A DNA stretch of 64,000 nt. It comes from Mobula hypostoma (Eukaryota). Shown in pieces: positions 25 through 62,200 of the stretch. A model generated the notes under the pieces. It searched no databases and was not told the origin of the DNA. It saw only the letters and a program-made list of their open reading frames with translations. Within the stretch, counting starts at the first letter, position 1; each line of letters opens with the position of its first letter. The stretch is from contig NC_086097.1 in NCBI RefSeq assembly GCF_963921235.1, positions 71,736,001 to 71,800,000 of the forward strand, written 5' to 3'. The position numbers were made by a program, and so were the translations under genes.

Positions 25-775
25 GATCAGAATCAGAATCAAAATCAGGTTTATTATCACTGGCATGTGACGTGAAATTTGTTAACTTAGCAGCAGCAGC
101 ATTTCAATGCAATACATAATCTAGCAGAGAGAGGAAAAAAATAATAAATAAAATAAAACATGACAATAAATAAACAAGTAAATCAGTTACGTATATTGAA
201 TAGATTTAGAAAAATGTGCAAAAACAGAAATACTATATTAAAAAAGTGAGGTAGTGTTCAAAGCTTCAATGTCCATTTAGGAATCAGATGGCAGAGGGGA
301 AGATGCTGTTCCTGAATCGCTGAGTGTGTGCCTTCAGGCTTCTGTACCTCCTTCCTGATGACAACAGTGAGAAAAGGGCATGCCCAGGATGCTGGAGGCC
401 TTTAATAATAGACATTGCCTTTCTGAGACACTGCTCCCTAAAGATGTCCTGGGTACTTTGTAGGCCAGTGCCAAGCTGGAGCTGACTAGATTTACAACCT
501 TCTACAGCTTCTTTCAGTCCTGTGCAGTAGCCCCTCCATACCAGACAGTGATGCAGCCCATCAGAATGCTCTCTGCAGTACATCTATAGAAGTTTTTGAG
601 TGTATTTGTTGACATGCCAAATCGCTTCAAACTCCTGATAAAGTATAGCCGCTGTCTTGCCTTCTTTATGGCTATGTCAATGTGTTGGGACCAGATTAGA
701 TCCTCAGAGATTTTGACACCCAGGAACTTGAAGCTGTTCACTCTCTCCACTTCTGATCCCTCTATGAAGATTGGT
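25..775 (-). mobile_element. Rex1/Babar-like LINE, 5'-truncated 3' fragment
   Basis: ORFs 514..750 and 284..583 encode the RT C-terminus (FKFLGVKISEDL, KKARQRLYFIRSLKRFG, CLRKAMSIIK..HPGHALFSLLSSGRRYRS); (ATTCTG)n-type tail at 25-50. Confidence 0.8.
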
Positions 776-970
776 ATGAAGGGTCTTGGCCCAAAGCATC
801 AACTGTTTATTCTTCTCCACAGCTGCTGCCTGGTCTGCTGAGTTCCTCTAGGTGAATTAGCTCTTCTACCTATCAACTCCTATTTTACCATTTTGTGTGT
901 TGTTGAGATGAGAGGTGATGGGTGGAAGAAGTAAAAGACTGAAGATAAAGGAATCTGTTAGGAGAGGAGA
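776..970. mobile_element. Penelope-like terminal repeat remnant with decayed hammerhead motif
   Basis: atgaagggtcttggcccaaagcatcaactgtt...gcctggtctgctgagttcctc matches the Penelope termini at 46734-46830 and 59244-59378. Confidence 0.6.
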
Positions 971-4569: not shown

Positions 4570-4705
4570 GCCACACACACAAGATACTGGAAGGGTCTTG
4601 GCCCAAAACATCGACTGTTTATTCCTCTTCATCGATATTGCCTAATCTGCTGAGTTCCTGTGCTTTGCTCCAGAAATCCAGCATCTGCAGAATCTCTTGT
4701 GTTCA
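4570..4705 (+). mobile_element. Penelope-like terminal repeat remnant
   Basis: gaagggtcttggcccaaaacatcgactg...ccagcatctgcagaatctcttgtgtt, same family as the other copies. Confidence 0.65.
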
Positions 4706-16324: not shown

Positions 16325-17549
16325 GTCATAGTAGTCATAGTCATAGTCATACTTCATTGATCCTGAGGGAAACTGGTTTTCGTTACAGTTGCACCATAAA
16401 TAATAAATAGTAATAGAGCCATAAATAGTTAAATAGTAATATGTAAATTATGCTAGTAAATTATGAAATAAGTCCAGGACCAGACTATCGGCACAGGGTG
16501 TCTGACCCTCCAAGGAAGGAGTTGTAAAGTTTGATGGCCACAGGCAGGAATGACTTCCTATGACACTCTGTGCTGCATCTTGGAGGAATGAGTCTCTGGC
16601 TGAATGTACTCCTGTGCCCACCCAGTACATTATGTAGTGGATGGGAGACATTGATCAAGATGGCATGCAACTTAGACAGCATCCTCGTTTCAGACACCAC
16701 TGTCAGAGAGTCCAGTTCCATCCCCACAACATCACTGGCCTTACGAATAAGTTTGTTGATTCTGTTGGTGTCTGCTATCCTCAGCCTGCTGCCCCAGCAC
16801 ACAACAGCAAACATGATAGCACTGGCCACCACAGACTCGTAGAACATCCTCAGCATCGTCCGGCAGATGTTAAAGGACCTCAGCCTCCTCAGGAAGTAGA
16901 GATGGCTCTGACCCTTCTTGTAGACAACCTCAGTGTTCTTTGACCAGTCCAGTTTATTGGCAATTCGTATCCCCAGGTATTTGTAATCCTCCACCATGTC
17001 CACACTGACCCCCTGGATAGAAACAGGAGTCACCGGTTCCTTAGCCCTCCTCAGGTCTACCACCAGCTCCTCAGTCTTTTTCACATTAAGCTGCAGATAA
17101 TTCTGCTCACACCATGTGACAAGGTTTCCTACCGTAGCCCTGTACTCAACCTCATCTCCCTTGCTGATGCATCCAACTATGGCAGAGTCATCTGAAAACT
17201 TCTGAAGATGGCAAGACTCTGTGCAGTAGTTGAAGTCTGAGGTGTAAATGGTGAAGAGAAAGGGAGACAAGACAGTCCCCTGTGGACCCCCAGTGTTGCT
17301 GATCACTCTGTCGGACACACAGTGTTGCAAGCACACGTACTGTGGTCTACCAGTCAGGTAATATAGAATCCATGACACCAGGGGAGCATCCACCTGCATC
17401 GCTGTCAACCTCTCCCCCAGCAGAGCAGGGTGGATGGTGTTGAATGCACTGGAGAAGTCAAAAAACATGACCCTCACAGTGCTCGCTGGCTTGTCCAGGT
17501 GTGCGTAGATACGGTTCAGCAGGTAGACGATGGCATCCTCAACTCCTAG
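16325..17549 (-). mobile_element. Young Rex1/Babar LINE, 5'-truncated, with RT and (CTATGA)n tail
   Basis: Open frame GVEDAI...FFDFSSAFNTI...PQGTVLSPFLF...KFSDD...YKYLG; tail gtcatagtcata at 16325-16351. Confidence 0.9.
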
Positions 17550-17680: not shown

Positions 17681-17821
17681 CAACGCAAACAACAGGAATT
17701 CTGCAGATGCTGGAAATTCAAGCAACATACATCAAAGTTGCTGGTGAACGCAGCAGGCCGAGCAGCCTCTTCCTATAGATGCTGCTTGGCCTGCTGCATT
17801 CCCCAGCAACTTTGATGTATG
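17681..17821. mobile_element. Miniature Penelope-derived hairpin insertion
   Basis: Inverted acatacatcaaagttgctg...gcagcaggcc / ggcctgctgc...cagcaactttgatgtatgt; 15-bp TSD tagcttgtttatttt at 17666-17680 and 17822-17836. Confidence 0.8.
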
Positions 17822-18300: not shown

Positions 18301-19850
18301 GACTACATCCTATATCCAGGGTAGGACTATCGAATACCACAGGGCAAACTTTAAATAGGGAGAGTGGCAGGAGCTAGTGGTAGAAGCAGATGTGATAAGG
18401 ATGTTGAAGATGCATTTAGATAGAAACATGAAAAAGTAGGGAATAGAGTGATTCAGGGAATATAAGGGATACAGACCAGATGCAGGCAGATGGGATTAAT
18501 TTAGATTAGAATCATGCTATACAGTTCTATGTCAACTTCCTTTGAGGTCTGCAGCAACACCAATGCTTTTCTGCTCTCCACAGAACCAAAGTCTATGTAT
18601 AATGTAATATCTTACCATGGAACATGGTTATTTATTTATTTGAGAAGTTTATATGGAAACAATTTAGGAATGTGCTCTCCTGCAAGTGTATAGATTATCA
18701 TGATTTTACTACCACAAGATGCATTTATGTCATCCCTTCAACAGAGTGAAATACACCTGGTATTTGGCAGAACTGTAACCACTGACAACAGGGCGAACAA
18801 AGAGATTTTCAGATAAGTGCATTCTCCAAAAAACAATAATCGTTGGCTCTGTGAATTGGTTGTGAAGGATGTGATTTGTTTTAATGTTGAAATACAACAT
18901 TGCCTCCAAAATGACATCAAGTATGATTCCATACATCGGTGGCACAGGCCGCTCCAGAGGCCACATTGCCAAATCATGCAGAGAACTCTACAGGTGCTAT
19001 GAATAATTCTGGAGCTCCAAGTTCCAGTTAACAGCATTGCCTAACCTTGCCTTGCAGAACACCGGCAGGAAGTAATAATCATTACTGGGCGGGATGAAAT
19101 CATCAACTATATATGGGTCATTTGCTTCTCCTGATTGCCTTTGCAATTCTGCAGATATTTAATTCACTGTATGAATCCTTAAAGTTGGGAGAATTTGCAG
19201 AGAGTCAATGTAGCAAGTGCTGATGGAGTTTGTCCTGAATTCAAGTAATAGACAAGTCAACTGCTCCCAGGGGTTAATTATTAGGCATTTACTTTGAAGT
19301 ACAAAGTAAAAACTGAAAAAACTTAGCCTGTTGGTGTCAGGAGTCGCTGTTTATTTCTGCATTAATTTGTGCTTTATATTGGTTGGCTAGATGAGTCTTG
19401 GTAAATTGTGTCTTTTGTTTTTGAATTAAAAGTTACTTTATAAGTATTGCAGTTTTCTTTTACTACCCATCTTATTCTTCTTTATGGGCAGTCTCTTAGT
19501 GTGAATGACTCGCTTCTTTTATAGGCTCCTGGGTGGATTGCACAGATTCCACCACAGCTGGACACATAATGCTTGCTGGAGTAGGTGGAGAGGTTGTTAT
19601 GGACATTATTGTTTGCAGATAGCTTCTGTGTGCTCCTTTCCAGATGTTCAGTGCCCTTCAATTTCTGCTGGATGGTTGAAAGCCAAGGTGAGTTGTACAT
19701 TTCCCTGCTCCTCTATGTACTAATTACGCATTAGTTGCTCAGTCGTCAATCAAGGTCAATAGCTCAGGAATTCTCTCCATGAGTCTCCAGCCATTTTGGC
19801 TCCTTCAAGACATTCTTTACAATCAACATCTTTTAGTAATCTATACTATC

Positions 19851-20760
19851 TCCCTTTCTCTTCACCATTTACACCTCGGACTTCAACTACTGCACAGAGT
19901 CTTGCCATCTTCAGAAGTTTTCTGATGACTCTGCCATAGTTGGATGCATCAGCAAGGGGGATAAGGCTGAGTACAGGGCTACGGTAGGAAACTTTGTCAC
20001 ATGGTGTGAGCAGAATTATCTGCAACTTAATGTGAAAAAGACTAAGGAGCTGGTGGTAGACCTGAGGAGGGCTAAGGAACCGGTGACCCCTGTTTCCATC
20101 CAGGGGGTCAGTGTGGACATGGTGGAGGATTACAAATACCTGGGGATATGAATTGACAATAAACTGGACTGGTCAAAGAACACTGAGGCTGTCTACAAGA
20201 AGGGCCAGAGCCATCTCTATTTCCTGAGGAGACTGAGGTCCTTTAACATCTGTTGGACGATGCTGAGGGTGTTCTACGAGTTTGTGGTGGCCAGTGCTAT
20301 CCTGTTTGCTGTTGTGTGCTGGGGCAACAGATACCAACAGAATCAACAAACTTATTCGTAAGGCCAGTGATGTTGTAGGGATGGAACTGGACTCTCTGAC
20401 GGTGGTGTCTGAAAAGAGGATGCTGTCCAAGTTGCATGCCATCTTGGACAATGTCTCCCATCCACTACATAATGTACTGGGTGGGCACAGGAGTACATTC
20501 AGCCAGAGACTTATTCCACCGAGATGCAACACAGAGCGTCACAGGAAGTCATTCCTGCCTGTGGCCATCAAACTTTACAACTCCTCCCTTGGAGGGTCAG
20601 ACACCCTGAGCCAATAGGCTGGTCCTGGACTTATTTCCTGGCATAATTTACATAATACTATTTAATTATTTATGGTTTTATTACTATTTATTTATGGTGC
20701 AAGTGTAACAAAAACCAGTTTCCCTCAGGATCAATAAAGTATGACTATGACTATGACTAT
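19851..20760 (+). mobile_element. Young Rex1/Babar LINE 3' fragment with (CTATGA)n tail
   Basis: Near-identical to the reverse complement of 16325-17270; ORF 20282..20617; actatc at both junctions. Confidence 0.9.
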
Positions 20761-31296: not shown

Positions 31297-31537
31297 GTAA
31301 TACACACATATTACTGGAGGAACTCACCATCTATGGAGAGGAATAAACCGTTGACATTTCAGGCTAAGACCCTTCATTCAGACATTCATCATTAGTCCTG
31401 ATAGAGGGTCTTGCCCCGAAACGTCAATTGTTTATTCCCCTCCATAGGTAGTGCCTGACCTGCTGAGATCCTCCAGAATTTTGCTTGTGTTACTCCGGAT
31501 TTCCAATATCTGCAGAATCTCTTATGTTTATAAGAAC
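31297..31537. mobile_element. Miniature Penelope-derived inverted-repeat element
   Basis: Inverted termini with two hammerhead-like motifs; 8-bp TSD ctcactaa at 31289-31296 and 31538-31545. Confidence 0.75.
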
Positions 31538-32319
31538 CTCACTAAATTCCTTTCCCCTCTCTGCAGCTCTCCATTTTCAGACCCTTCCTAACCCCAGCTC
31601 TTTGGCTGAGTTTTTAGTCATCTTAGCCGATCCAATCTGATGCTTTCTTTGCTGTGGTTATAGTTTAAATTTTCCTTGTGAGGTGTTTTGACTATGTTGA
31701 TAGTGCTTCATAAGGTAATGCTTGTGAGGGGAAATAATTATTGAATGGACAGAAAAGAAGACAACCCATCTGTCTCACAGCTGCTAGAACTCAGATATAT
31801 GGCTTTGGCACAATTCCATGGTATCAGGCTTGCCAGGTGCACATAACTTCATCATCGGCAATTGCTGGGACAAGCCTTCCATTTGTGTTAACAACAGGAC
31901 CTGATCTTTATCACGCTGTTGCACATAATTGACAATTTTACATAATGTTGGATTCCTTCCAGGATTGCTGTACCACAGGACAAACGCATATATTCGGCAA
32001 AGCCATGGCAGGAATTCATGGCAGACTGATCACAGACCCCTGCAACTTGGATCTGTGTACAAGAGCCGTTGTTTGTTTAAAGTGAAGTCCCATCAGGAGC
32101 TATTATTCAGCTGCGAGGCATGGCTTCGTGATTTCCTGTCTTACCCAAAGGTTCACACAGACAGCATACAGACAGGCAGAAGGCTCTCTGATACATGCTG
32201 CTTGTCCCACACAACCTGTGATTTTTTTTGCCATGTGATCTATACATTCCCCATTCTGCACCAAAATGAAGTAGCCATTAGTAAGAAATAGGTAGCACGA
32301 TGTTAGTCATAAGTATCCA

Positions 32320-32433
32320 GACAAACAAAATGTTGAAGGAGCACAGCAGATCAAGCAGTATCTATAGAGGAAAATTAATAGTTGATGTCCTGGGCCGAGA
32401 CTCTTCATCAACACTTCATCATGAGTCCTGATG
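32320..32433 (-). mobile_element. Penelope terminal remnant
   Basis: aaaatgttgaaggagcacagcagatcaagcagtatctatagagg...gttgatgtcctgggccgagactcttcatc. Confidence 0.6.
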
Positions 32434-44951: not shown

Positions 44952-45777
44952 GAATCATATTAGGAGACAGGTATGCGATAGGGCTTTAAAGAGACAGATT
45001 ATAGGATCATCTTGTTGGAACTGTGTATGTTGCTAACAGATAGAAATAGCCCTTTGAGATAGCGCACACTGGATGCATGGGTGGTGTGAGTGGAAACCAC
45101 AGACTTTGATTTTACCTGTGGGCCGTACACTATTGACCCACAAGTTGGAGCATGGAGGAGATAAAGCCACTTCAGTAGCTGGACTTAGAGGCAAGCAATT
45201 AGCCAAATAAGCAAAAGCGATGTGAGCAAGATTTTTCTCTCTTGGGCAGGTTTTCTGATGACTAGTAATGAGCAGGAATGAAAAAATGGAGATCTTATTG
45301 TACTCAGACTGTCACTAAGATAGAGAACTTCCGTCAACAGTCAGGACTCTCATTGAGGCACTGGATAAAGTGCTCAAAGCATTTCAACTTTATTGCAGTC
45401 TTCATGCAACAAAATGATTGGCAGATCCAAGTATGTCAGGAGATGCCCAGTAAACAGGGAGAAATTCAACACATATTTGATTGAACCAAAGTTACTGGCT
45501 GCAAACTGTGACTCTGCAAATCAGAGGGATTCATTGTTCTGTGAAGAGATTAAATACAAACTTTGAAATGCAAGAGTGAGTGAGTATCCATTGATTTAGA
45601 CCAGGAAAATCTGTGTTAATGCTGAGCTGATGGGTCAGATCACGAACATTAGAAAATCTACAGATGCTGGAAATCCAAGCAAAACACACAAAATGCTGGA
45701 GGAACTCAGCTGGCCAGGCAGCGTCTATGGAAAGGAGTAAACTGTCGAAATTTTGGACTGAAACCCTTCATCAGGGT

Positions 45778-46723
45778 CATTGTGATAAAGTTTGCAGATG
45801 ATACGAAGATAGGTGAAGGGGTAGGTAGTGCTGAGGAAGTAATGTGATTGCAACAGGACTTAGACAAATTGGAAGAATGGGCAAAAAAGTGGCAGATGGA
45901 ATACAGTGTTGGGAAATATATGATGACGCATCTTGGTAAAAGGAACAATAGTGCGGATTATTATCTAAATGGGAAGAAATTTCAAACATGAGAGATGCAG
46001 AGGGATGTAGGAGTCATGCAAGACTCCCAGAAAGTTAATTTGCAGGTTGAGTCTGTGGTAAAGAAAGCAATGCAATGTTGGCGATTATTTCAAGAGAAAT
46101 AGAATATAAAAGCAAGGAGATAATGCTGAGCCATTATCAGACACTAGTCAGGCCACACTTAGAGTATTGTCAACAGTTTTTGGCCCCATATCTCAGAAAG
46201 GATGTGTTTTCATTGAAGAGAGTCCAGAGGAGGTTCAACAGGTTGATTCTGGGAATAAAGGGGTTAACATATGAGGAGTGTTTTGGCTTTGGGCCTGTAC
46301 TCACTGGAATTTAGAAGAATGTGGGGGGATCTCATTGAAATGTACCGAATTTTGAAAGGACTAGATGGGGTGGATGTGGAGAGGATGTTTCCTATGGTGG
46401 GGTTATCCAGAACTAGAGGGCACAGCCTCAAAACTCGTGGCATGGGCATCTTTTAGAACAGAGGTAAGGAGGAATATTTTCAGCCAGAAATGAGTAAATC
46501 TGTGGGATGCTCTGTCACAGATTGCGGTGGAGGCCAACTCCATGTGTATATTTAAGGCAGAAGTTGATTGTTTCCTGATTGATCAGGGCATCAAAGGAGA
46601 TGGCAAGAAGGGAGGTGTATGGGGTTTGAGTGGGATCCAGGATCAGCCATGATGGGATGGTGGAGCAGACTTGATGGGCTGAATGGCCTAATTCTGTTCC
46701 TATGTCTATGGTCTTAAGATCTT
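45778..46723 (+). mobile_element. CR1 3' fragment with TSD
   Basis: aagtttgcagatgatacgaag (KFADDTK); ORFs 46075..46314 and 46271..46456; TSD atcagggt at 45770-45777 and 46724-46731. Confidence 0.85.
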
Positions 46724-46732
46724 ATCAGGGTG

Positions 46733-46768
46733 GGTCCTGATGAAGGGTCTCAGCCTGAAACATCGACT
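46733..46768 (+). ncRNA. Minimal type-I hammerhead ribozyme motif, partly decayed
   Basis: gtc CTGATGA a ggg tctcag cct GAAA c atc gac; stem III palindrome lost by a CpG-type change. Confidence 0.5.
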
Positions 46769-47449
46769 GTTTACTCTTTTCTATAGATGCTGTCTGGCCT
46801 GCTGAATTCCTCCAGCATTTTGTATGTTTAGTGGGTCAGATAGATGACAACAGAATTTTTTTCTGAATCATTCAAACATATCCAGCAAAGGAAAGAAGAG
46901 CAACAATGCATATCATGGGAGTATTGTGGAAAATGACATGAACGGCAGAAGGAGATATGCCCAGCTGGTGAGGAAAAATGTCACAAATGCAAACAGATAT
47001 GCAGAGGGAAGAAGTCCAGCAGCAAGCAGAGGAGAACGAGCAACAGGTCAAGGTCAGTTCACAATATCACATGGTGATCAGAGTGCCAGTGAAATCTCTA
47101 AGGGGGTGTTTAAAGAGTGTAAAACGTCATGGCACTGAACTCAGGCATAGGGAAAGGGAACAAGAGAGACTAGAAGGTATCAAACACAGAAGATATGGAA
47201 GAATATAGTTCTATGTAGACTATGCTAAAACATGTAACTCACTCCTACGAAATTTCTTGAGAAGTTTCCAGAGGTAAATAAAAATGCTAAAAATGTACAA
47301 CACTACAACTATGGTACAATATTTGGTGACAGAGTGGTATAGGAAGCAGAGTTGCTGCTTCACAGAGCAGAGACTTGGATTCAATAGTGACTTTGCATGG
47401 AGACAGTTTTGGCATCATCCAGTACCTTTCTTAATTTGCTTTCAGTTGA

Positions 47450-49815
47450 CTATTTTGCATCAGTCTTCACTGTAGAGGATGCTAGTGGTATGCCAGAGGT
47501 TCAAGAGTGTTGGTGGCAGAATTGAGTGCAGTTGCTATTACTGGGTGCTTGAGAACTAAAAGATTTGAAGGTAGATAAATCACCTGATCCAGATGGACTA
47601 CTCCCCAGGGTTCTGAAAGAGATAGCTGAAGAGATTGCGGAGGCATTAGTGATGATCTTTCAAGAATCACTAGGTTCTGGCAGGGTTTGGAGGACTGAAA
47701 AATTGCAAATATTACTCCACTCTTCAAGAAAGGAGGGAGACACAAGAAAGGAAAGTATAGACCAGTTAGCCTGACCTCAGTGATTGGGAAGATGTTGGAG
47801 TCAATTATGAAGGATGAGGTTTCAGGGTACTTGGAGGTACATGATAAAATAGGCCAAAATCAGCATGGTTTCCTTAAGGGAAAATCTTGTCTAACAAATC
47901 TGTTGGAATTCTATGAGGAAATAACAAGCAGGATAGACAAGGGAGAATTGGTGGATGTTGTGTACTTGGATTTTCAGAAGGCTTTTGACAAGGTGCTGTA
48001 CATTCAGATGCTTAACAAGTTAAGGGCCATGGTATTATAGCAAAGATACTAGCATGGATAGAGCATTGTCCGAATGGCAGGAGGCAAAGTGTGGGAATAA
48101 AGGGAATTTTTTTCAGAATGGCTGTTGATGACTAGTGGTGTTCCACAAGGGTCAGTGTTGGGAACTCTTCTGTTTATATTGTATGATGGAATTAATGGCT
48201 TTGTGGCCAGGTTTTCAATTGATACAAAGATAGGTGGAGGGGCAGGTAGTGCTGAGGAAGCAAGAAGGCTGTAGAAGAACTTAGACAAATTAGGAGAATG
48301 GACAAAAAAGTGACAGATGGAATACAGAGTCAAGAAGTGTATGATCATGCACTTTGATAGAAGGAATAACAGGGTAGACTATTTTCTAAACAGGGAGAAA
48401 ATACAAAAATCTGAGGTGCAAAGGGACTTGGGAGTCCTCATGCAGGATTCCTTAAAGGTTAACTTCTAGGTTGTGTCAGTGGTGAGGAAGACAAACGTAA
48501 TGTTAGCATTGATTTTGAGAAGACTAGAATATAAAAGGAAGTATGTAATGCTGAGGCTTTATAAGGCATTGGTCAGGTGGCACTTGGAGTATTGTGAGCA
48601 GTTCTGGGCCTGTTATCTAAGAATGTGCAGACATTGGAGAGAGGTTCAAAGGAGGTTCAAAAAAATGATTCTGGGAATGAAAGACATCTTATGAAGAGCG
48701 ATTGATGGCTCTAAACCTGTACTCGCTGGAACTTAGAAGAGTGAGGGGTGATTTCATTGAAAGGCCTAAATCAGAGTGGATGAAGAGTTTATTATGGGAG
48801 ACTAGGACCGGAGGGCACAACCTCAGAATACCGGGATGTCCATTTAGAATGGAGATGAAGAAGATTTTCTTTAGCCAGAAGGTGAAGAATCTGTAGAATT
48901 TATCGCCACAGGTGGTTATGGGGAGGCCAGGTCATTGGCAATATTTAAGGTGGAGGTTGATAGATTCTTGAGAAATCAGGGTGTGAAAGGTTACAGGGAG
49001 AAGGTAGGAGAATGGGGTTGAAAGGGAAATGGATCAGCCATGATCGAGTGGCAGAACAGACTTGGTGGGCTGATCGTAAACACAAAATACTCCGCAGATA
49101 CTGGAATCAAAACAACACTCACAGCACGCTAGAGGAACTCAGCGGGTTGGGCAGCATCCGTGGAAATGATCGGTCAACATTTCGGGCCGGAATCCTTTGT
49201 CAGGACTGAAGAGGGAAGGGGCAGAGGCCCTATAAAGAAGGTGGGGGGAGGGTGGAAAGGAGAAGGCTGGTAGGTGCCAGGTGAAAAACCAGTAAAGGGA
49301 AAGATAAAGGGGTGGGGGAGGGGAAGCAGGGAGGGGATAGGCAGGATGTTGGGGCCATCTATTGCATTCTGTGCTCCCGGTGCGGCCTCCTCTACATCGG
49401 TGAGACCCGACACAGATCTGGGGACCGCTTCGTTTCCCTATCCCTATTTCACTCTGCTCCCTCCCCCAGCTGCCTATCACCTCCCTCATGGTTCTGCCTC
49501 CTTCTACTACCCATTGTGCTTTCCCCTATTCCTTCTTCACCTTTCCTGCCTATCACCTCCCTGCTTCCCCTCCCCCACCCCTTTATCTTTCCCCTTACTG
49601 GTTTTTCACCTGGAACCTACCAGCCTTCTCCTTCCCACCCTCCCCCCACCTTCTTCATAGGGCCTCTGCCCCTTCCCCCTACAGTCCTGATGAAGGGCTC
49701 TGACCTGAAGCGTTGACTGGTCGTTTCCACAGATGCTGCCTGTCCTGCTGAGTTCCTCCAGCATGTTGTGAGTGGCTGAATAGCCCAATTCTGCTCCTGT
49801 GTCTTGTGATCTTTA
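47450..49815 (+). mobile_element. CR1 LINE (RT and 3'UTR), degraded, with a Penelope inserted in its 3'UTR
   Basis: ORFs 47565..47774 (DKSPDPDGLLPRVLKE), 47780..48040 (YLDFQKAFDK) and 48473..48694. Confidence 0.88.
49074..49773. mobile_element. Penelope-like element: inverted terminal repeats around a GIY-YIG endonuclease fragment
   Basis: VGAIYCILCSRCGLLYIGETRHRSGDRF at about 49348-49432; inverted arms about 49115-49345 and 49545-49772; TSD ggctga at 49068-49073 and 49774-49779. Confidence 0.85.
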
Positions 49816-54241: not shown

Positions 54242-57107
54242 AACATAGAACATAGAATAGTACAGCACAGTACAGGCCCTTCGGCCCACAATGTTGTGCC
54301 GACCCTCAAACCCTGCCTCCCATATAAGTCCCCACCTTAGATTCCTCCATATACCTGTCTAGTAGTCTCTTAAACTTCACTAGAGTATCTGCCTCCACCA
54401 TTGACTCAGGCAGGCATTCCACGCACCAACCACTCTCTGAGTAAAAAACCTTCCTCTAATATCCCCCCTTGAACTTCCCACCCCTTACCTTAAAGCCATG
54501 TCCTCTTGTATTGAGCAGTGGTGCCCTGGAGAAGAGGCGATGGCTATCCACTCTATCTATTCCTCTTATTATTTTGTACACCTCTATCATGTCTCAAAAG
54601 AGTAAAGCCCTAGCTCCCTTAATCTCTGAACATAATGCATACTTTCTAAACCAGGCAGCATCCTGGTAAATCTCCTCTGTACCCTTTCCAATGCATCCAC
54701 ATCCTTCCTATAGTGAGGTGACCAGAACTGGACACAGTACTCCAAGTGTGGCCTAACCAGAGTTTTATAGAGCTGCATCATTACATCGCGACTCTTAAAC
54801 TCTATCCCTCGACTTATGAAAGCTAATACCCCAAAAGCTTTCTTAACTACCCTATCCACCTGTGAGGCAACTTTCAGGGATCTGTGGACATGTACCCTGA
54901 GATTCCTATGCTCCTCCACACTACCAAGTATCCTGCCATTTACTTTATACTCTGCCTTGGAGTCTGTCCTTCCAAAGTGTACCACCTCACTCTTCTCCGG
55001 GTTGAACTCCATCTGCCACTTCTCAGCCCAGTTCTGTATCCTATCAATGTCTCTCTGAAATCTTTGACAATCCTCTACACTATCTACAACACCACCAACC
55101 TTTGTGTCGTCTGCAAACTTGCCAACCCACCCTTCTACCCCCACATCCAGGTCATTAATAAAAATCACAAAAAGTAGAGGTCCCAGACCAGATCCGTGTG
55201 GGACACCACTAGTCACAATCCTCCAATCTGAATGTACTCCCTCCACCACCACCCTCTGCCTTCTGCAGGCAAGCCAATTCTGAATCCACCTGGCCAAACT
55301 TTCCTGGATCTCATGCCTTCTAACTTTCTGAATAAGCCTACCGTGTGGAACCTTGTCAAATGCCTTACTAAAATCCATATAGATCACATCCACTGCACTA
55401 CCCTCATCTATATGTCTGGTCACCTCCTCAAAGAACTCTATCAGGCTTGTTAGACACGATCTGCCCTTCACAAAGCCATGCTGACTGTCCCTGATCAGAC
55501 CATGATTCTCTAAATGCCTATAGACCCTATCTCTAAGAATCTTTTTCAACAGCTCTCCCACCACAGACATAAGGCTCACTGGTCTATAATTACCCGGACT
55601 ATCCCTACTACCTTTTTTGAACAAGGGAACAACATTCGCCTCCCTCCAATCCTCCGGTACCATTCCCGTGGACAACGAGGACATAAAGGTCCTAGCCAGA
55701 GGCTCAGCAATCTCTTCTCTTGCCTCGTGGAGCAGCCTGGGGAATATTTCGTCAGGACCCGGGGACTTATCTGTCCTAATGTATTTTAACAACTCCAACA
55801 CCTCCTCTCCCTTAATATCAACATGCTCCAGAACATCAACCTCACTCATATTGTCCTCACCATCATCAAGTTCCCTCTTATTGATGAATACTGAAGAGAA
55901 GTATTCATTGAGGACCTCGTTCACTTCCACAGCCTCCAGGCACATCTTCCCACCTTTATCTCTAATCGGTCCTACCTTCACTCCTGTCATCCTTTTTTTC
56001 TTCACATAATTGAAGAATGCTTTGGGGTTTTCCTTTACCCTATTCGCCAAGGCCTTCTCATGCCCCCTTCTTGCTCTTCTCAGCCCCTTCTTAAGCTCCT
56101 TTCTTGCTTCCCTATATTCCTCAATAGAACCATCTGATCCTTGCTTCCTAAACCTCATGTATGCTGCCTTCTTCCACCTGACTAGATTTTCCACTTCACT
56201 TGTCACCCATGGTTCCTTCACACTACCACTCTTTATCTTCCTCACCGGGACAAATTTATCCCTTACATCCCGCAAGAGATCTCTAAACATCGACCACATG
56301 TCCATAGTACATTTCCCTGCAAAAACATCATCCCAATTCACACCCGCAAGTTCTAGCCTTATAGCCTCATAATTTGCCTTTCCCCAATTAAAAATTTTCC
56401 TGTCCTCTTTGATTCTATCCTTTTCCATGATAATTATGAAGGCCAGGAAGCGGTGGTCACTGTCTCCCAGATGCTCACCCACTGAGAGATCTGTGACCCG
56501 ACCCAGTTCATTACCTAGTACTGGATCTAGTATGGCATTCCCCCTGGTCGGCCTGTCCACATACTGTGACAGGAATCCATCCTGGACACACTTAACAAAT
56601 TCTGCCCCATCTAAACCCTTGGAACTAATCAGGTGCCAATCAATATTAGGGAAGTTAAAGTCACCCATGATAACAACCCTGTTATTTTTGCACCTTTCCA
56701 AAATCTGCCTCCCAATCTGCTCCTCTGTATCTCTGCTGCTACCAGGGGGCCTATAGAATACCCCCAGTAGAGTAACTGCTCCCTTCCTGTTCCTGACTTC
56801 CACCCATATTGACTCAAAAGAGGATCCTGCTACATTACCCACCCTTTCTGTAGCTGTAATAGTATCCATGACCAGTAATGTCACCCCTCCTCCCCTTTTT
56901 CTGCCCTCTCTATCCCTTTTAAAGCACTGAAATCCAGGAATATTGAGAATCCATTCCTGCCCTGGTGCCAGCCAGGTCTCTGTAATGGCCACTATATCAT
57001 AATTCCATGTATGTATCCAAGCTCTCAGTTCATCACCTTTGTTCTTGATGCTTCTTGCATTGAGGTACACACATTTCAGCCCTTCTACCTTACTGTCTTT
57101 ATACCGT
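54242..57107 (-). mobile_element. Young CR1 LINE with near-complete ORF2
   Basis: (acatagaa)n tail at 54242-54257; continuous ORF2. Confidence 0.95.
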
Positions 57108-57166
57108 AAAGACAGAAATTTATGCAAAATACATCCTGAAATACTTTTTTCTTTGCAACCATCCAC
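54587..57166 (-). CDS. CR1 ORF2 APE endonuclease-reverse transcriptase (859-aa ORF; first residues come from flanking DNA; C-terminus frameshifted)
   Basis: APE motifs YLNARS, ITETW, YRPP, GDFN, SDH; RT motifs YMDFSKAFD, GVPHGSGLGP, KFADD. Confidence 0.9.
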   Translation of the reverse strand: MDGCKEKSISGCILHKFLSLRYKDSKVEGLKCVYLNARSIKNKGDELRAWIHTWNYDIVAITETWLAPGQEWILNIPGFQCFKRDREGRKRGGGVTLLVMDTITATERVGNVAGSSFESIWVEVRNRKGAVTLLGVFYRPPGSSRDTEEQIGRQILERCKNNRVVIMGDFNFPNIDWHLISSKGLDGAEFVKCVQDGFLSQYVDRPTRGNAILDPVLGNELGRVTDLSVGEHLGDSDHRFLAFIIIMEKDRIKEDRKIFNWGKANYEAIRLELAGVNWDDVFAGKCTMDMWSMFRDLLRDVRDKFVPVRKIKSGSVKEPWVTSEVENLVRWKKAAYMRFRKQGSDGSIEEYREARKELKKGLRRARRGHEKALANRVKENPKAFFNYVKKKRMTGVKVGPIRDKGGKMCLEAVEVNEVLNEYFSSVFINKRELDDGEDNMSEVDVLEHVDIKGEEVLELLKYIRTDKSPGPDEIFPRLLHEAREEIAEPLARTFMSSLSTGMVPEDWREANVVPLFKKGSRDSPGNYRPVSLMSVVGELLKKILRDRVYRHLENHGLIRDSQHGFVKGRSCLTSLIEFFEEVTRHIDEGSAVDVIYMDFSKAFDKVPHGRLIQKVRRHEIQESLARWIQNWLACRRQRVVVEGVHSDWRIVTSGVPHGSGLGPLLFVIFINDLDVGVEGWVGKFADDTKVGGVVDSVEDCQRFQRDIDRIQNWAEKWQMEFNPEKSEVVHFGRTDSKAEYKVNGRILGSVEEHRNLRVHVHRSLKVASQVDRVVKKAFGVLAFISRGIEFKSRDVMMQLYKTLVRPHLEYCVQFWSPHYRKDVDALERVQRRFTRMLPGLESMHYVQRLRELGLYSFET

Positions 57167-58079
57167 GAAAACAGTGCCCCAAAGAATGAATGACAGTTAA
57201 ATGTTAGAACCCCCAAAGTACCCCCAGCTTCCCTCCCTCCAGCATGTAAGCAGCAGCAAAGCAATGATCCCCCTCCCCCCATCAGCAAAAAAAAGAATCA
57301 GTACCCACCACGGGGCACTCAAGCGTGCAGCAAAGCAACAGCAAAGACACATACTTGCAGTACCCCAAAGACTACTCGTTCACCCGGTAATCGACTTACC
57401 ACAGGCTCTCTCTCTCTCTCTAAGAAGGGAGAAAGCGATATCTCTGTTTCACAGCGAGAGGCGAAACATAACAAACAACTTGCTGGTTTAAGATGATAAC
57501 AGTCCGTTGTGTCGCTTTTTCTGAGCTCTGTGCCCAAAGGTCTCGGGTCTCTGGGCACACAGCCAGAGATATTCTGACTCCCACGGCACACTGATTTCCT
57601 GCCGGGACACCGACCTTTGATCCGCCCGTCTCCAGAGTCATGAGATCCCGAGCCTCTGAAAGCGTGTTAAGCTCTTAGGCTGCATCCTTGGCATGTCGGA
57701 TAACGGCCAGTCATGAAACCCCAAGAGCAGGTCCCATTCCCACAAAGAACCGACATCAGCATGTAACTCCAGGTCAGGGTCTTCAAAAGAACCCTGAAAA
57801 GGAAAAATAGAGAGAATAACGAAGGAAATAGAGCTGTTTCTGAAGATACAAGCAAAGGAGTCGTCATTTTGTGCCATCATAACTAAGCTCTGCCCTCTTC
57901 CTCATAATTAAGATCTCAATATATGTTTCATTTAAATTCAAATTTAGAGGGTTCCCTGGTCTCCCTCCCCTAAGTGTGACTAACAGCACCGGGTTGATGT
58001 GTGCTGTCATTTCTCCATGGAAAACAGTTAAATGCTCTTTTTAGTCGGAATCAGGTGTAAATCGCAAATACTCAGTAAA

Positions 58080-58365: not shown

Positions 58366-58479
58366 ATACAATAATATACAAAGAGAGAGGAAATGAATTA
58401 ACATGACAGGTTTCTGCATGTAACATACATAAAAATTGCTGGTGAACACAGCAGGTCAGGCATCTCTAGGAAGAGGTAC

Positions 58480-58515
58480 AGTTGACATTTCGGGCCGAGA
58501 CCCTTCGTCAGGACT
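58480..58515 (-). ncRNA. Minimal type-I hammerhead ribozyme motif with CpG-type decay
   Basis: Minus strand agtc CTGACGA a ggg tctcgg ccc GAAA tgtc aact. Confidence 0.55.
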
Positions 58516-58740
58516 AACTAAAAGAAGAGCTAGTAAGAGATGTGAAAGTAGGAGGGGGAGGGGGAGGCCAGAAATGATAGGAGAAGGCAGGAGGGGGAGG
58601 GATGAAGCTAAGAACTGGACAGTTCATTGGCAAAAGGGATATGAGAGGATCATGGGACAGGAGGCCTAGGGAGAAAGAAAGGGGCAGGGGAAGCCCAGCG
58701 GCTGGGCAAGGAGTATAGTGAGAGGGACAGAGGAAGAAAA

Positions 58741-58742
<2 letters not shown>

Positions 58743-58816
<74 letters not shown>
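58743..58816. repeat. (GA)n microsatellite
   Basis: Perfect GA dinucleotide run inside the left Penelope arm. Confidence 0.97.
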
Positions 58817-58819
<3 letters not shown>

Positions 58820-59243
58820 AATAAATAAATAACGGCTGGGGTACAAAGGGGAGGTGGGGCATTAACAGATGTTAGAGAAGTCAATGTTCATGCCATCAGG
58901 TTGGAGGCTACCCAGACAGAATATAAGGTGTTGTTCCTCCAACGTGATGGCATGAACATTGACTTCTCTAATTTCCGTTAATGCCCCACCGTACCCCTCC
59001 GTTATTTATTTATTTACTCTCTCTCCTTCTGTCCCTCTCACTATAATTCTTGCCCATCCTCTGGGCTTCCCCCCCACCTTTCTTTCTCCCTAGGCCTCCC
59101 ATCCCATGATCCTCTTGTATCACTTTTGCCAATCAACTTTCCAGCTCGAAGCTGTATCCCTCCCTCTCCTGTCTTCTCCTATCATTTCTGATCAGCCCCT
59201 CCCCATCTCTCTTTCAAATCTCTTACTATCTCTTCTTTCAGTT

Positions 59244-59278
59244 AGTCCTGACGAAGGGTCTCGGCCCGAAACGTCGAC
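59244..59278 (+). ncRNA. Intact minimal type-I hammerhead ribozyme motif
   Basis: Stem I gtc/gac; core CUGACGA plus extra A; stem II GGG-UCUCGG-CCC; GAAA; palindromic stem III ACGU; GUC cleavage triplet ending at 59275. Confidence 0.75.
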
Positions 59279-62200
59279 AGTACCTCTTCCTAGAGATGCT
59301 GCCTGGCCTGCTGTGTTCACCAGCAATTTTTATGTATGTTGCTTGAAATTCCAGCATCTGTAGATTTCCTCGTGTTTGAGGTTTCTGCATGTTCAAGGTC
59401 TGATTCTGCACTCATTTTAGGTGGCTGTGTCTTTTATGATCTAGGGCCTTCAGTCTTTCTGCCTAACTGGGACACAAGTCATCAGAGTGTCTCAAGCAGT
59501 GAAATTTTGATGCTCTCATTTTACTTTGAACAGGACAGAAATAAATGAAGAAAATCTGATAATCTTCAAGCAATCTGTGTGAAATTGGGTTTTAGTGGAA
59601 GCAAAATGAAAAACTGTTGAGCAAATAGTTTTTCAATGTTATAGGCAGTCATCAACAACACAAATTTGCATTTATATAGGACCTTTAAGCTAGTAAAACA
59701 TCCCAAGGGGTTTCACAAGTGCTTTGCCAGATGAAAATTAATATCTCTATTCAATCAGGTATTAAATCTTCAGCAGATTCAATTACGACATTCAGAAGTT
59801 AACTGGATAAGTTCTTGAATGCTGAAAGCTTGTGGGGGTATGGGAAGATGGTGGGGATGTGGGCTTAGCTCTCCTCTGGAAGTGCAAACATTCCAAGTTT
59901 AGGACAAGTAACCCTGAATGAAGGAAGTTGGTAAATGTTGAATCATAACACAGCATCATCAGGAAATGTGGCAGATCTGAAATCTACTGGCCTTTGATCA
60001 TGGTGCATGAGTAGGAGTCAGTCTAGCAGGAACCACCTCCTGCCTGCTGGCCTGATCTGGTCAGCTAGCCTTTCTGCCATTCCAGTGTCTGCTGACGATG
60101 ACAGCCAACTGCTCTCTTATGTGGCCCAGGAAGCCATTCAGTTTAATAAAGTGCTATATTGGAGTGGTTCAGGAAGGCAGTCCACCATCACCTTGACAGG
60201 GTAAAGAGAATGAACACAAAATGTTATCCTAATCTAGAACCTGAGAGTGAATTATAACATTTAAAACTTGGCATCAATTGAAAGAGAGGAAATCGAGAGG
60301 GAAACATACTCTACAAGATGGCTTGCAAAGTGACATTGATCTGGGATGGAGTTACTGCATGTCTAAATCAGCTGTTTTAGACTCATACTAAACATCAGTA
60401 ATTGCTGGTGTGACTAAAGCATTTATCTATTCATGGTTGAGCTGTCAAAAATGTCACCCACTGGATTGTTCCAGCTGTTAGTACTTGCTCCTGAACAATG
60501 GTGCACATGTGTATCAAGTGTATGTCACTAACTCTCTGTGTCTTCCACCATGGGAGCGGTGACTGCGGAGATGGAGCTCCTGATAGTGCTTGCCCAGGAA
60601 GGCTCTGCTGCTTGGAGGAGTCAGGCACCAATAAAGGAGATAACCCCTGCTGTAAATGGCATAGAAGAGAAGAAAAGGATCAAGATGACAAAGAAAAATG
60701 GAAAGCCAAGTGAGAAAGGTTTGAATGTAGGCTAAATATATAACTGCTTTTGGCAAATCTAAATTTTAATGTTAATATGTTAATAAGCAATGAGCGGTCA
60801 TATTGAGAGAACTGACTAATTTCACCATCTCCTGACATCTTGCTACGTCAGGAGTTGTAGAGCATCATTCCCCAGCTGGATTTCTTTCCCTGTCTTCAAA
60901 GCAACTTGCAGCAAGCTACATTCTAATAAGGTCTACATTTAAAACCTGTGATTCTGAATATCTACCCACTCACACCCCTCAGCCCCATGTACTGACCCTG
61001 GGCTGAGAATAAAATCATCCCCCTTGTATCATGGGTACTGTGGCTGGAACTTCTTCTGCTTTGGAAAATATCTTGTCTCTTCTGCTTCCCATTCAAACAC
61101 ATTTGCATTCAATGTTTAAAAAACCTGTATCAAACAACCTGTCATGCAGCATTTTAAATAGCAATGAAGGATTCCTTTATATACATATAATTGGTAACTA
61201 TGGGCCTGGAAATGATTGTATCACAGTAAAGTAAGGACTTAAAGTCACATTGTCAATGGCCCACCTGCTATCCAACATTATATGATTGAAGATTACTATT
61301 AAAATATACGATGCCTCTCATTTCCTCCTTAAATTAAGGTGCGCAAGGCAGCTTGATTAAAATAAATTTATATTGAACTGTTTATAAGTTACTTCTGTCT
61401 ATATCCTTGCACTCTGCACATTTTAAGTCCTCTTTGAAGATCTGCCAACAAATTCAGAGAGCATGCTGATGAATTCATTTTAGGCTTTGACCAGTTTTAT
61501 GAGTGGACCCTAATTCTGCTCAACGTTTTACTTTTAAACTCATGCAGAGGATCACTGAAGTTTAGACTGGCCTGCACACAATTTATGGTTGGCAATTTGC
61601 AATTTTTCTTTTCCAAATTTAGGCCCAATTGTACTGAAGAAAAAAGATGCAACTGAGTGGAAATGATTACTGGCAGTCTGTAATGCCTGGGCTGCATTAA
61701 AGATCAAGCCTTGCCTACAGAGAGAACAGGTTCACCTGGAAGTGACTGATTAACATGGGTCCTCAGAGGATTGCCCGCTACCTAGTCCATTTAACCAAAA
61801 GAACCACAGCCATACATTATTCAGGCACTGCATTCATTTAACAAGGTCTGATTAAAAAGGATGTTAAAATATCTATAGACTGGAATGGATTTCAGACCAT
61901 TCTAACAAATTTCCCAAGTACTGCGATAGCTCAGCATTTTGGTGAGCAAATTGAAATTGAAATGGCTTGCCTGCCCTGTAATCTATTTCCAGCCAGTACC
62001 ATAGAAGTCGGTAAATGGTACCATGGCAACTATTGAAGTTAGTTCATCTACTGATCAAGCTGCATATTACTGCACTGAGAATTCCTGAGCTGCCTTTGAA
62101 TTCAAAAAGCTGTAAGGGAGACCTTCTGCAGACTGTAAACATACATTGCAGGGAATCTGTAAGGAATTCAGAAGAATTTTGTTTGCTTAATCATCTTCTG

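What the first reader, a model, noticed from the sequence alone, without database searches (positions are those of the whole stretch)
59244..59278. Intact minimal hammerhead ribozyme in a young Penelope terminus
Seen: GTC-CTGACGA-A-GGGTCTCGGCCC-GAAA-CGTC-GAC has the full hammerhead core, a 3-bp stem II, a 3-bp stem I and an NUH (GUC) cleavage site; stem III is the self-complementary ACGU. Established: Penelope-like elements carry minimal type-I hammerheads with palindromic stem III, thought to cleave as dimers. Inference: this copy could be a self-cleaving RNA if transcribed on the + strand, possibly in trans with other copies.
Basis: partly seen in the sequence, partly recalled or inferred. 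Interest (0 to 1): 0.7.

Follow-up and report, generated by a model that had tools for sequence, protein, structure and literature searches.

The report
Ribozyme motif in Penelope transposon remnant
This is an ordinary self-cutting RNA motif that a well-known kind of jumping gene carries in its end repeat, left here in a broken, mirror-image insertion whose other half would most likely smother it.

Summary
The hammerhead motif is real (59245-59278; predicted cut after 59275). It lies in the terminal repeat (pLTR) of a Penelope-like element: the upstream peptide matches a Mobula RT/GIY-YIG protein at 22 of 25 residues. Corrections: stem II is 4 bp. The 3-bp stem I is a private weakening: relatives have T at 59279 (93-99% of contig depth), giving 5 bp. 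A read-through RNA is predicted to bury the ribozyme in duplex (mean pairing 0.97). So the family ribozyme probably works (dimer or protein-assisted), but this copy probably does not cleave in vivo. 'Young' holds only partly: it is the best preserved of ten copies compared and a relative probably has the empty site, but it carries at least 18 private changes. Rfam gave no hammerhead hit. The scan noted the same kind of element elsewhere in this genome. New member of a known kind; low interest.

The parts
58408..58421 (.). Left target-site duplication, 14 bp
   Evidence: Exact direct repeat of 59379-59392, flush with both element ends
58422..58947 (-). Long arm: 3' tip of the PLE ORF plus pLTR, without the tail
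   Evidence: Inverted copy of the plus arm; 361 of 402 aligned columns identical
58481..58514 (-). Second minimal hammerhead, damaged: two CpG transitions break the ACGU palindrome and the first stem I pair
   Evidence: 2 differences from the plus motif
58744..58816 (+). (GA)n microsatellite expanded in the minus arm only (ends approximate)
   Evidence: gap in the arm alignment
58862..58947 (-). C-terminal tip of the GIY-YIG endonuclease region and stop codon
   Evidence: 22 of 25 residues identical to Mobula protein P0002; tblastn E 6e-14
58896..58907 (.). One arm of a 12-bp inverted repeat native to the family ORF (partner 58936-58947, 28-nt spacer)
   Evidence: Inverted repeat I2; family continuation in the loose ends behind 58947
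58936..58947 (.). Junction of the two arms: 12-nt overlap (microhomology) with one substitution at 58944
   Evidence: Belongs to both arms; the family antisense diverges right after 58947 (table 7)
58936..59378 (+). Short arm: last 14 ORF codons, stop at 58979-81, pLTR with hammerhead, tail
   Evidence: depth in four public runs ends at about 59378-85
59245..59278 (+). Minimal type-I hammerhead; predicted cut between 59275 and 59276
   Evidence: matches the min-HHR features in PMC4209133
59279..59279 (+). Private A where relatives have T; breaks the fourth pair of stem I
   Evidence: T in 93, 97, 98 and 99% of depth in runs X19, X20, X1, X2; the minus arm has T
59341..59378 (+). 38-nt PLE 'tail', on this arm only
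   Evidence: a 30-40 bp one-sided tail is described in PMC8557442 and PMC3846280
59379..59392 (.). Right target-site duplication, 14 bp
   Evidence: contig 16 of run X19 matches the flank from exactly 59379

Best explanation
The motif is the standard minimal hammerhead of the pLTR of a very abundant, probably Neptune-type Penelope-like retrotransposon of cartilaginous fish. In the parent element it is expected to cut the RNA after GUC when two motifs pair through ACGU/ACGU and stem I, or with help from the element's protein (inferred from papers). Here it is a passenger in a dead, 5'-truncated inverted insertion (shown: TSD, two arms, one tail, only the ORF tip left). Likely origin (inferred): a 14-nt staggered cut, cDNA primed from both strands at the element's two start sites, and joining of the two cDNAs through a 12-nt inverted repeat in the ORF. 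This copy is probably silent as a ribozyme (predicted, not shown): stem I is weakened, there is no same-strand partner, and a read-through RNA pairs the motif with its own antisense arm. I put about 0.93 on the identity and about 0.8 on no meaningful cleavage in vivo.
For: Peptide match to RT/GIY-YIG protein P0002, whose longer relatives carry the RT domain. 14-bp TSD and inverted arms. One-sided tail in 5 of 5 inverted insertions in the window, as described for PLEs. 61,373 and 42,804 contigs laid in runs X19 and X20; no shown variant row in the core; T at 59279. Folding: motif paired to the antisense arm with mean probability 0.97, stems I and II at 0.00, and enforcing the hammerhead fold costs 61.5 kcal/mol; even the plus arm alone gives stem I about 0.001. 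Literature: no monomer and low dimer cleavage; protein-dependent cleavage, not needed for insertion, and no reads ending at the cut site in Anolis; 1 of 9 Xenopus dimers cleaved.
Against: No Rfam hit. No full-length element or whole genome was available, so the HHR-ORF link rests on the two arm tips and one other window copy. The folding models ignore Mg2+, tertiary contacts, proteins and co-transcriptional kinetics. A transcript starting inside the plus arm would leave the motif free of the antisense arm. The family letters come from related organisms, not this genome. The window copies show decay, not compensatory changes.
Confidence: 0.8

Rival explanations
1. This very copy is an active ribozyme in vivo: a transcript starts inside the plus arm (pLTR promoter) and is cut after 59275 by pairing in trans with one of the many other family RNAs, or with help from PLE protein.
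For: All core bases and the ACGU palindrome are intact, with 5 of 5 CpGs kept. The family is very abundant. pLTRs are reported to hold promoters (review passage). The double-hammerhead fold can be drawn, at -14.5 kcal/mol.
Against: That fold is far above the dimer MFE (-31.9) and above two monomers (-23.6), because core GACG pairs with CGUC instead. Stem I is only 3 bp. No transcription evidence exists for the locus. Published activity is low even for forced dimers.
Confidence: 0.12
2. The inverted structure arose by fold-back self-priming of a single cDNA or antisense RNA at the 12-bp inverted repeat, not by two priming events; the arms were identical at birth and have since diverged.
For: The junction lies exactly at a native 12-bp inverted repeat. 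Self-priming was proposed for palindromic PLE junctions (PMC3846280 passage). The arms share 7 non-majority letters, so their templates were close relatives or the same molecule.
Against: The orientation of the 28-nt spacer makes the minus arm the template, yet the plus arm has a 38-nt tail that the minus arm lacks, so fold-back needs an extra trimming step. The arms differ at 41 of 402 columns while the flank differs from a relative with the probable empty site at 8 of 222 (Fisher p 0.003).
Confidence: 0.35
3. The motif belongs to a non-autonomous tandem retrozyme (circRNA-forming) rather than to a plain PLE pLTR.
For: Retrozymes are reported in one chondrichthyan and derive from pLTRs. A few joints from 59276-82 back to 59242-47 in runs X19 and X20 could be tandem units elsewhere; their kind is not printed (table 5c).
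Against: This locus has no same-strand tandem unit; it has the ORF tip, the tail and a TSD.
Confidence: 0.04
4. Chance resemblance to a hammerhead inside a repeat.
For: No Rfam hit; no folding excess; no covariation among window copies.
Against: The descriptor is met in 5 of 400 shuffles; all four published extra features are present; the motif sits where PLE ribozymes sit; the block is kept in subfamilies whose flanks differ on both sides.
Confidence: 0.02

Closest known systems
Minimal hammerheads (min-HHR) in pLTRs of metazoan PLEs, including fish Xena, Poseidon and Neptune (Cervera and de la Pena 2014, PMC4209133)
   Same: Type I, full core, extra base between 9 and 10.1, G10.1-C11.1 pair, palindromic 15.2-16.2, no loop 3, mostly found in truncated copies; pairs on opposite strands 100-700 bp apart are described there (here about 730 bp).
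   Different: Stem II is 4 bp here, against 7-8 bp in the Schistosoma motifs. Stem I is cut to 3 bp in this copy (family 5 bp). I saw no cartilaginous-fish example in the two of four parts I read; supplements not opened.
Inverted-pLTR PLE insertions with TSD and one-sided 30-40 bp tail (Arkhipova 2013, PMC3846280; Craig 2021, PMC8557442)
   Same: Two inverted 5'-truncated copies, overlap at the junction, TSD, tail on one arm only.
   Different: Only the ORF tip is left. The TSD is 14 bp against 8-10 bp in the rotifer examples I saw.
Anolis Poseidon element PAc (Frangieh 2024, PMC11167929)
   Same: Hammerhead in the pLTR; the tail lies between two RT start sites; the enzyme cuts and extends both strands, which fits this locus.
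   Different: PAc is Poseidon clade. The relative of this element (P0002) has a CX4CxxC linker, which points to Neptune or Nematis.
Mobula hypostoma LOC134353856 (P0002)
   Same: 22 of 25 identical residues at the ORF tip; its read-through C-terminus also matches the window's pLTR.
   Different: It is a 422-aa fragment with RT motif and GIY-YIG; the locus keeps only the last 14 and about 27 codons.
Non-LTR retrozymes (bioRxiv 10.64898/2026.07.22.740005)
   Same: Type-I hammerhead derived from a pLTR.
   Different: No head-to-tail tandem unit at this locus.

Membership tests
Minimal type-I hammerhead of PLEs | Core CUGANGA ... GAAA ... UH | tested here: met
   59248-54, 59268-71, 59274-75
Minimal type-I hammerhead of PLEs | Extra base between 9 and 10.1; G10.1-C11.1 pair | tested here: met
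   A59255; G59256-C59267
Minimal type-I hammerhead of PLEs | Palindromic 15.1-16.1 with no loop 3 | tested here: met
   ACGT 59271-74; lost in the minus arm
Minimal type-I hammerhead of PLEs | Helix I of 4-5 bp | tested here: not met
   3 bp in this copy; 5 bp with the family letter T at 59279
Minimal type-I hammerhead of PLEs | Compensatory covariation in stems | tested here: inconclusive
   11 window pieces show decay only; no genome-wide set
Minimal type-I hammerhead of PLEs | Self-cleavage as dimer or protein-assisted | not testable with these tools
   Folding only; contigs cannot show RNA ends
Rfam hammerhead families | Covariance-model hit | tested here: not met
   None at E<=10
EN+ Penelope-like element | ORF with RT and C-terminal GIY-YIG upstream of the pLTR | tested here: met
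   Met by homology of the surviving tip: P0002 has the YIDD motif and a GIY-YIG match (E 5e-4, just under the Pfam cut-off); a GIY-YIG piece lies inside another window insertion
EN+ Penelope-like element | Inverted truncated copy, TSD, one-sided 30-40 bp tail | tested here: met
EN+ Penelope-like element (autonomous copy) | Full-length ORF | tested here: not met
   tblastn finds only short tips in the window
Neptune clade | CX2-5CxxC linker between RT and EN | tested here: met
   Seen in the relative P0002, not in the locus; shared with Nematis
Neptune clade | Placement in an RT tree | not tested
   No named clade references were at hand
Non-LTR retrozyme | Two or more tandem same-strand units with a hammerhead | tested here: not met

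The most novel reading that the evidence does not exclude
The locus is a readable record of two-ended Penelope integration: both strands of one 14-nt staggered cut were primed on two different RNAs, one at each RT start site, and the cDNAs were joined at a native 12-nt inverted repeat. If so, this abundant family lets one test genome-wide how inverted pLTRs and one-sided tails form. It would also mean that such insertions silence their own ribozyme by making long duplex RNA.
Probability: 0.3. Interest if true: 0.45.

Novelty: new member of a known kind. Interest (0 to 1): 0.17.

Why it matters
Little as a single motif: thousands of such hammerheads per genome are already described in animals with PLEs. 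Its value is practical. It is a 34-nt near-minimal hammerhead from an abundant cartilaginous-fish family that is easy to assay, and the insertion keeps the TSD, junction overlap and one-sided tail needed to weigh two-ended priming against fold-back, which the papers I read leave open.

Tried and rejected
Whole genome: none held, so no copy number, family alignment or full-length element. Rfam: no hammerhead hit; the miRNA-family hits at 58785-59048 are far below gathering scores and reflect the hairpin and microsatellite. Pattern scans of metagenome and viral contigs: 0 matches each. Expression: no RNA holder listed; the 'RNA?' runs are guesses kept as contigs, so they say nothing on transcription or cut ends. 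Host gene: no convincing exon among 140 of the 194 stop-to-stop frames of 60 aa or more outside self-repeats, only LINE domains and sub-cut-off hits; short exons would be missed, so the direction of any read-through is unknown. The window's RT frames are LINE-type or unassigned, and none is hit by the PLE queries. A literature search for hammerhead plus Penelope plus shark terms was swamped by unrelated papers (0 of 20 listed held either of the first two terms), so it is no evidence of absence. Lunse et al. (dimer cleavage) is not held; I saw only its title in a reference list and a review's summary. Structure prediction was not run, as it has no bearing.

Full report
1. Observation. The motif is there: GTC 59245-47, CTGACGA 59248-54, extra A 59255, stem II GGGT/GCCC around CTCG, GAAA 59268-71, CG, U16.1 at 59274, C17 at 59275, GAC 59276-78. 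Stem II is 4 bp with a U.G pair, not 3. A minimal-hammerhead descriptor of my own finds 2 loci in the window against 0.075 per shuffle; with palindromic stem III, 1 against 0.0125 (5 of 400 shuffles). Against it: no Rfam hammerhead hit and no folding excess (z -0.40).

2. What it sits in. The motif is part of a 957-bp insertion, 58422-59378, flanked by an exact 14-bp direct repeat. It is the longest approximate repeat in the zones searched around the ends. The insertion has two arms with their 3' ends outward. The minus arm (58422-58947) holds a second hammerhead with two CpG transitions that break the ACGU palindrome and the first stem I pair. Both arms begin in the last codons of an ORF. The minus-arm peptide finds one protein among 2 candidates, Mobula hypostoma LOC134353856 (E 4e-4), with 22 of 25 residues identical. 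That protein has an RT YIDD motif, a CX4CxxC linker and a GIY-YIG match, and 85 of 3112 longer candidates match it, most with an RT domain. The linker marks Neptune and Nematis PLEs (PMC8557442, passages). I did not build a tree, so Neptune is an inference. The host being a cartilaginous fish is inferred from this match.

3. The family. A self-comparison and mismatch scan give 11 hammerhead-bearing pieces in the window. Five inverted insertions are recognisable, with TSDs of 15, 8, 10, 14 (2 mismatches) and 14 bp. In 5 of 5, exactly one arm runs to the end of the tail; the 8-bp TSD is the least secure. One of them holds a GIY-YIG piece. This architecture is published: inverted 5'-truncated copy, TSD and a 30-40 bp tail at one end (PMC8557442 and PMC3846280, passages). 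I laid 4 of the 24 listed runs on 58840-59600; they are from coded related organisms (best word share 0.37), all contigs, and laid 61,373, 42,804, 9,135 and 6,384 records. None of the 40 shown of 109 variant rows lies in 59244-59278, so the majority core equals this copy as far as shown. At 59279, 93-99% of depth has T where the window has A. That letter gives stem I five pairs (three Watson-Crick, A-U, U.G); this copy has three, then an A.A mismatch. Loose ends before 59244 and behind 59278, and the window alignment, show subfamilies that keep the motif while flanks change.

4. Age. Against: the arms differ at 41 of 402 columns. Of the 31 shown rows inside the plus arm, 26 are majority differences in both X19 and X20; 18 of these are private to the plus arm, 7 are shared by both arms and 1 differs in both (I left out 2 rows in the minus arm or spacer and 7 flank rows). 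The differences cluster in 59041-59215 (29 of 175) and are rare in 59281-59340 (1 of 57). Arm divergence exceeds flank divergence (p 0.003). Two different templates, a mutable pyrimidine tract or assembly error in a palindrome could each explain this; I cannot separate them.

5. How the insertion formed (inferred). The family's antisense strand continues past 58947 into upstream ORF; read by eye, the loose-end consensus encodes LLYCHDEAT, against LLYCKDEAT in P0002. So 58936-58947 belongs to both arms: a 12-nt overlap supplied by an inverted repeat native to the ORF. The Anolis PLE protein cuts and extends both strands and starts at two RT sites whose spacing is the tail (PMC11167929, parts 1-2 of 4). 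That gives a simple model: one staggered cut, two primings, and annealing of the cDNA ends at the overlap. Fold-back self-priming, proposed in PMC3846280, fits the junction and the 7 shared letters but not, without trimming, a tail on the copied arm.

6. Would it cleave? For the class: no monomer activity and low dimer activity (PMC4209133, parts 1-2 of 4); protein-dependent cleavage that is dispensable for insertion, and no reads ending at the cut site; 1 of 9 Xenopus dimers active (bioRxiv 10.64898/2026.07.22.740005, parts 1-3 of 5). For this copy: in a read-through RNA the motif pairs with its antisense arm at mean probability 0.97, stems I and II fall to 0.00, and enforcing the ribozyme fold costs 61.5 kcal/mol; the minus-strand read-through folds just as strongly (-661 kcal/mol). 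With the plus arm alone, stem II is about 0.17 and stem I about 0.001. The double-hammerhead form scores -14.5 kcal/mol against -31.9 for an inactive dimer. The two copies at the locus are on opposite strands and cannot form a cis dimer. These are secondary-structure predictions only. Transcription of the locus is unknown.

7. Verdict. It works like, and is filed with, the minimal hammerheads of PLE pLTRs; this copy fails one listed feature (helix I of 4-5 bp) through a private change, while the family meets it. Supplements of the papers were not opened and may list cartilaginous-fish motifs. New member of a known kind; interest 0.17.

Noticed in passing
window 45641-46831: Inverted PLE pLTR pair (TSD 10 bp, 45631/46832) with a roughly 950-bp LINE-like fragment at its centre that has its own 8-bp duplication (45770/46724): a nested insertion rather than capture.
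   Followed up: partly
window about 49060-49769: Older inverted PLE insertion of another subfamily; arms 204 of 231 identical; holds a GIY-YIG piece at 49348-49436 followed by a deletion.
   Followed up: partly
window 17681-17821: 141-bp inverted PLE insertion of the same subfamily with a perfect 15-bp TSD; both arms truncated downstream of the hammerhead core.
   Followed up: partly
window 769-860, 4581-4700, 31297-31537, 32310-32423, 45641-45777, 46732-46831: Many copies are 5'-truncated at or just upstream of the hammerhead, as if reverse transcription often stops there; not tested statistically.
   Followed up: no
window 54587-57196 (-): 869-aa open frame with AP-endonuclease and RT domains: a well-preserved LINE.
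   Followed up: no
window 16332-17267 and 19849-20759: Two 92% identical copies, in opposite orientation, of an RT plus ALKBH8_N-type (DUF1891-like, recalled) LINE end.
   Followed up: no
table 5c, places 59276-82 to 59242-47: Low-depth joints in runs X19 and X20 from the end of the hammerhead to its start; could be tandem hammerhead units in relatives, but the joint kind is not printed.
   Followed up: no
window 59041-59215: Arm differences are concentrated in the pyrimidine-rich part of the pLTR (29 of 175) against 1 of 57 in 59281-59340; unexplained.
   Followed up: partly
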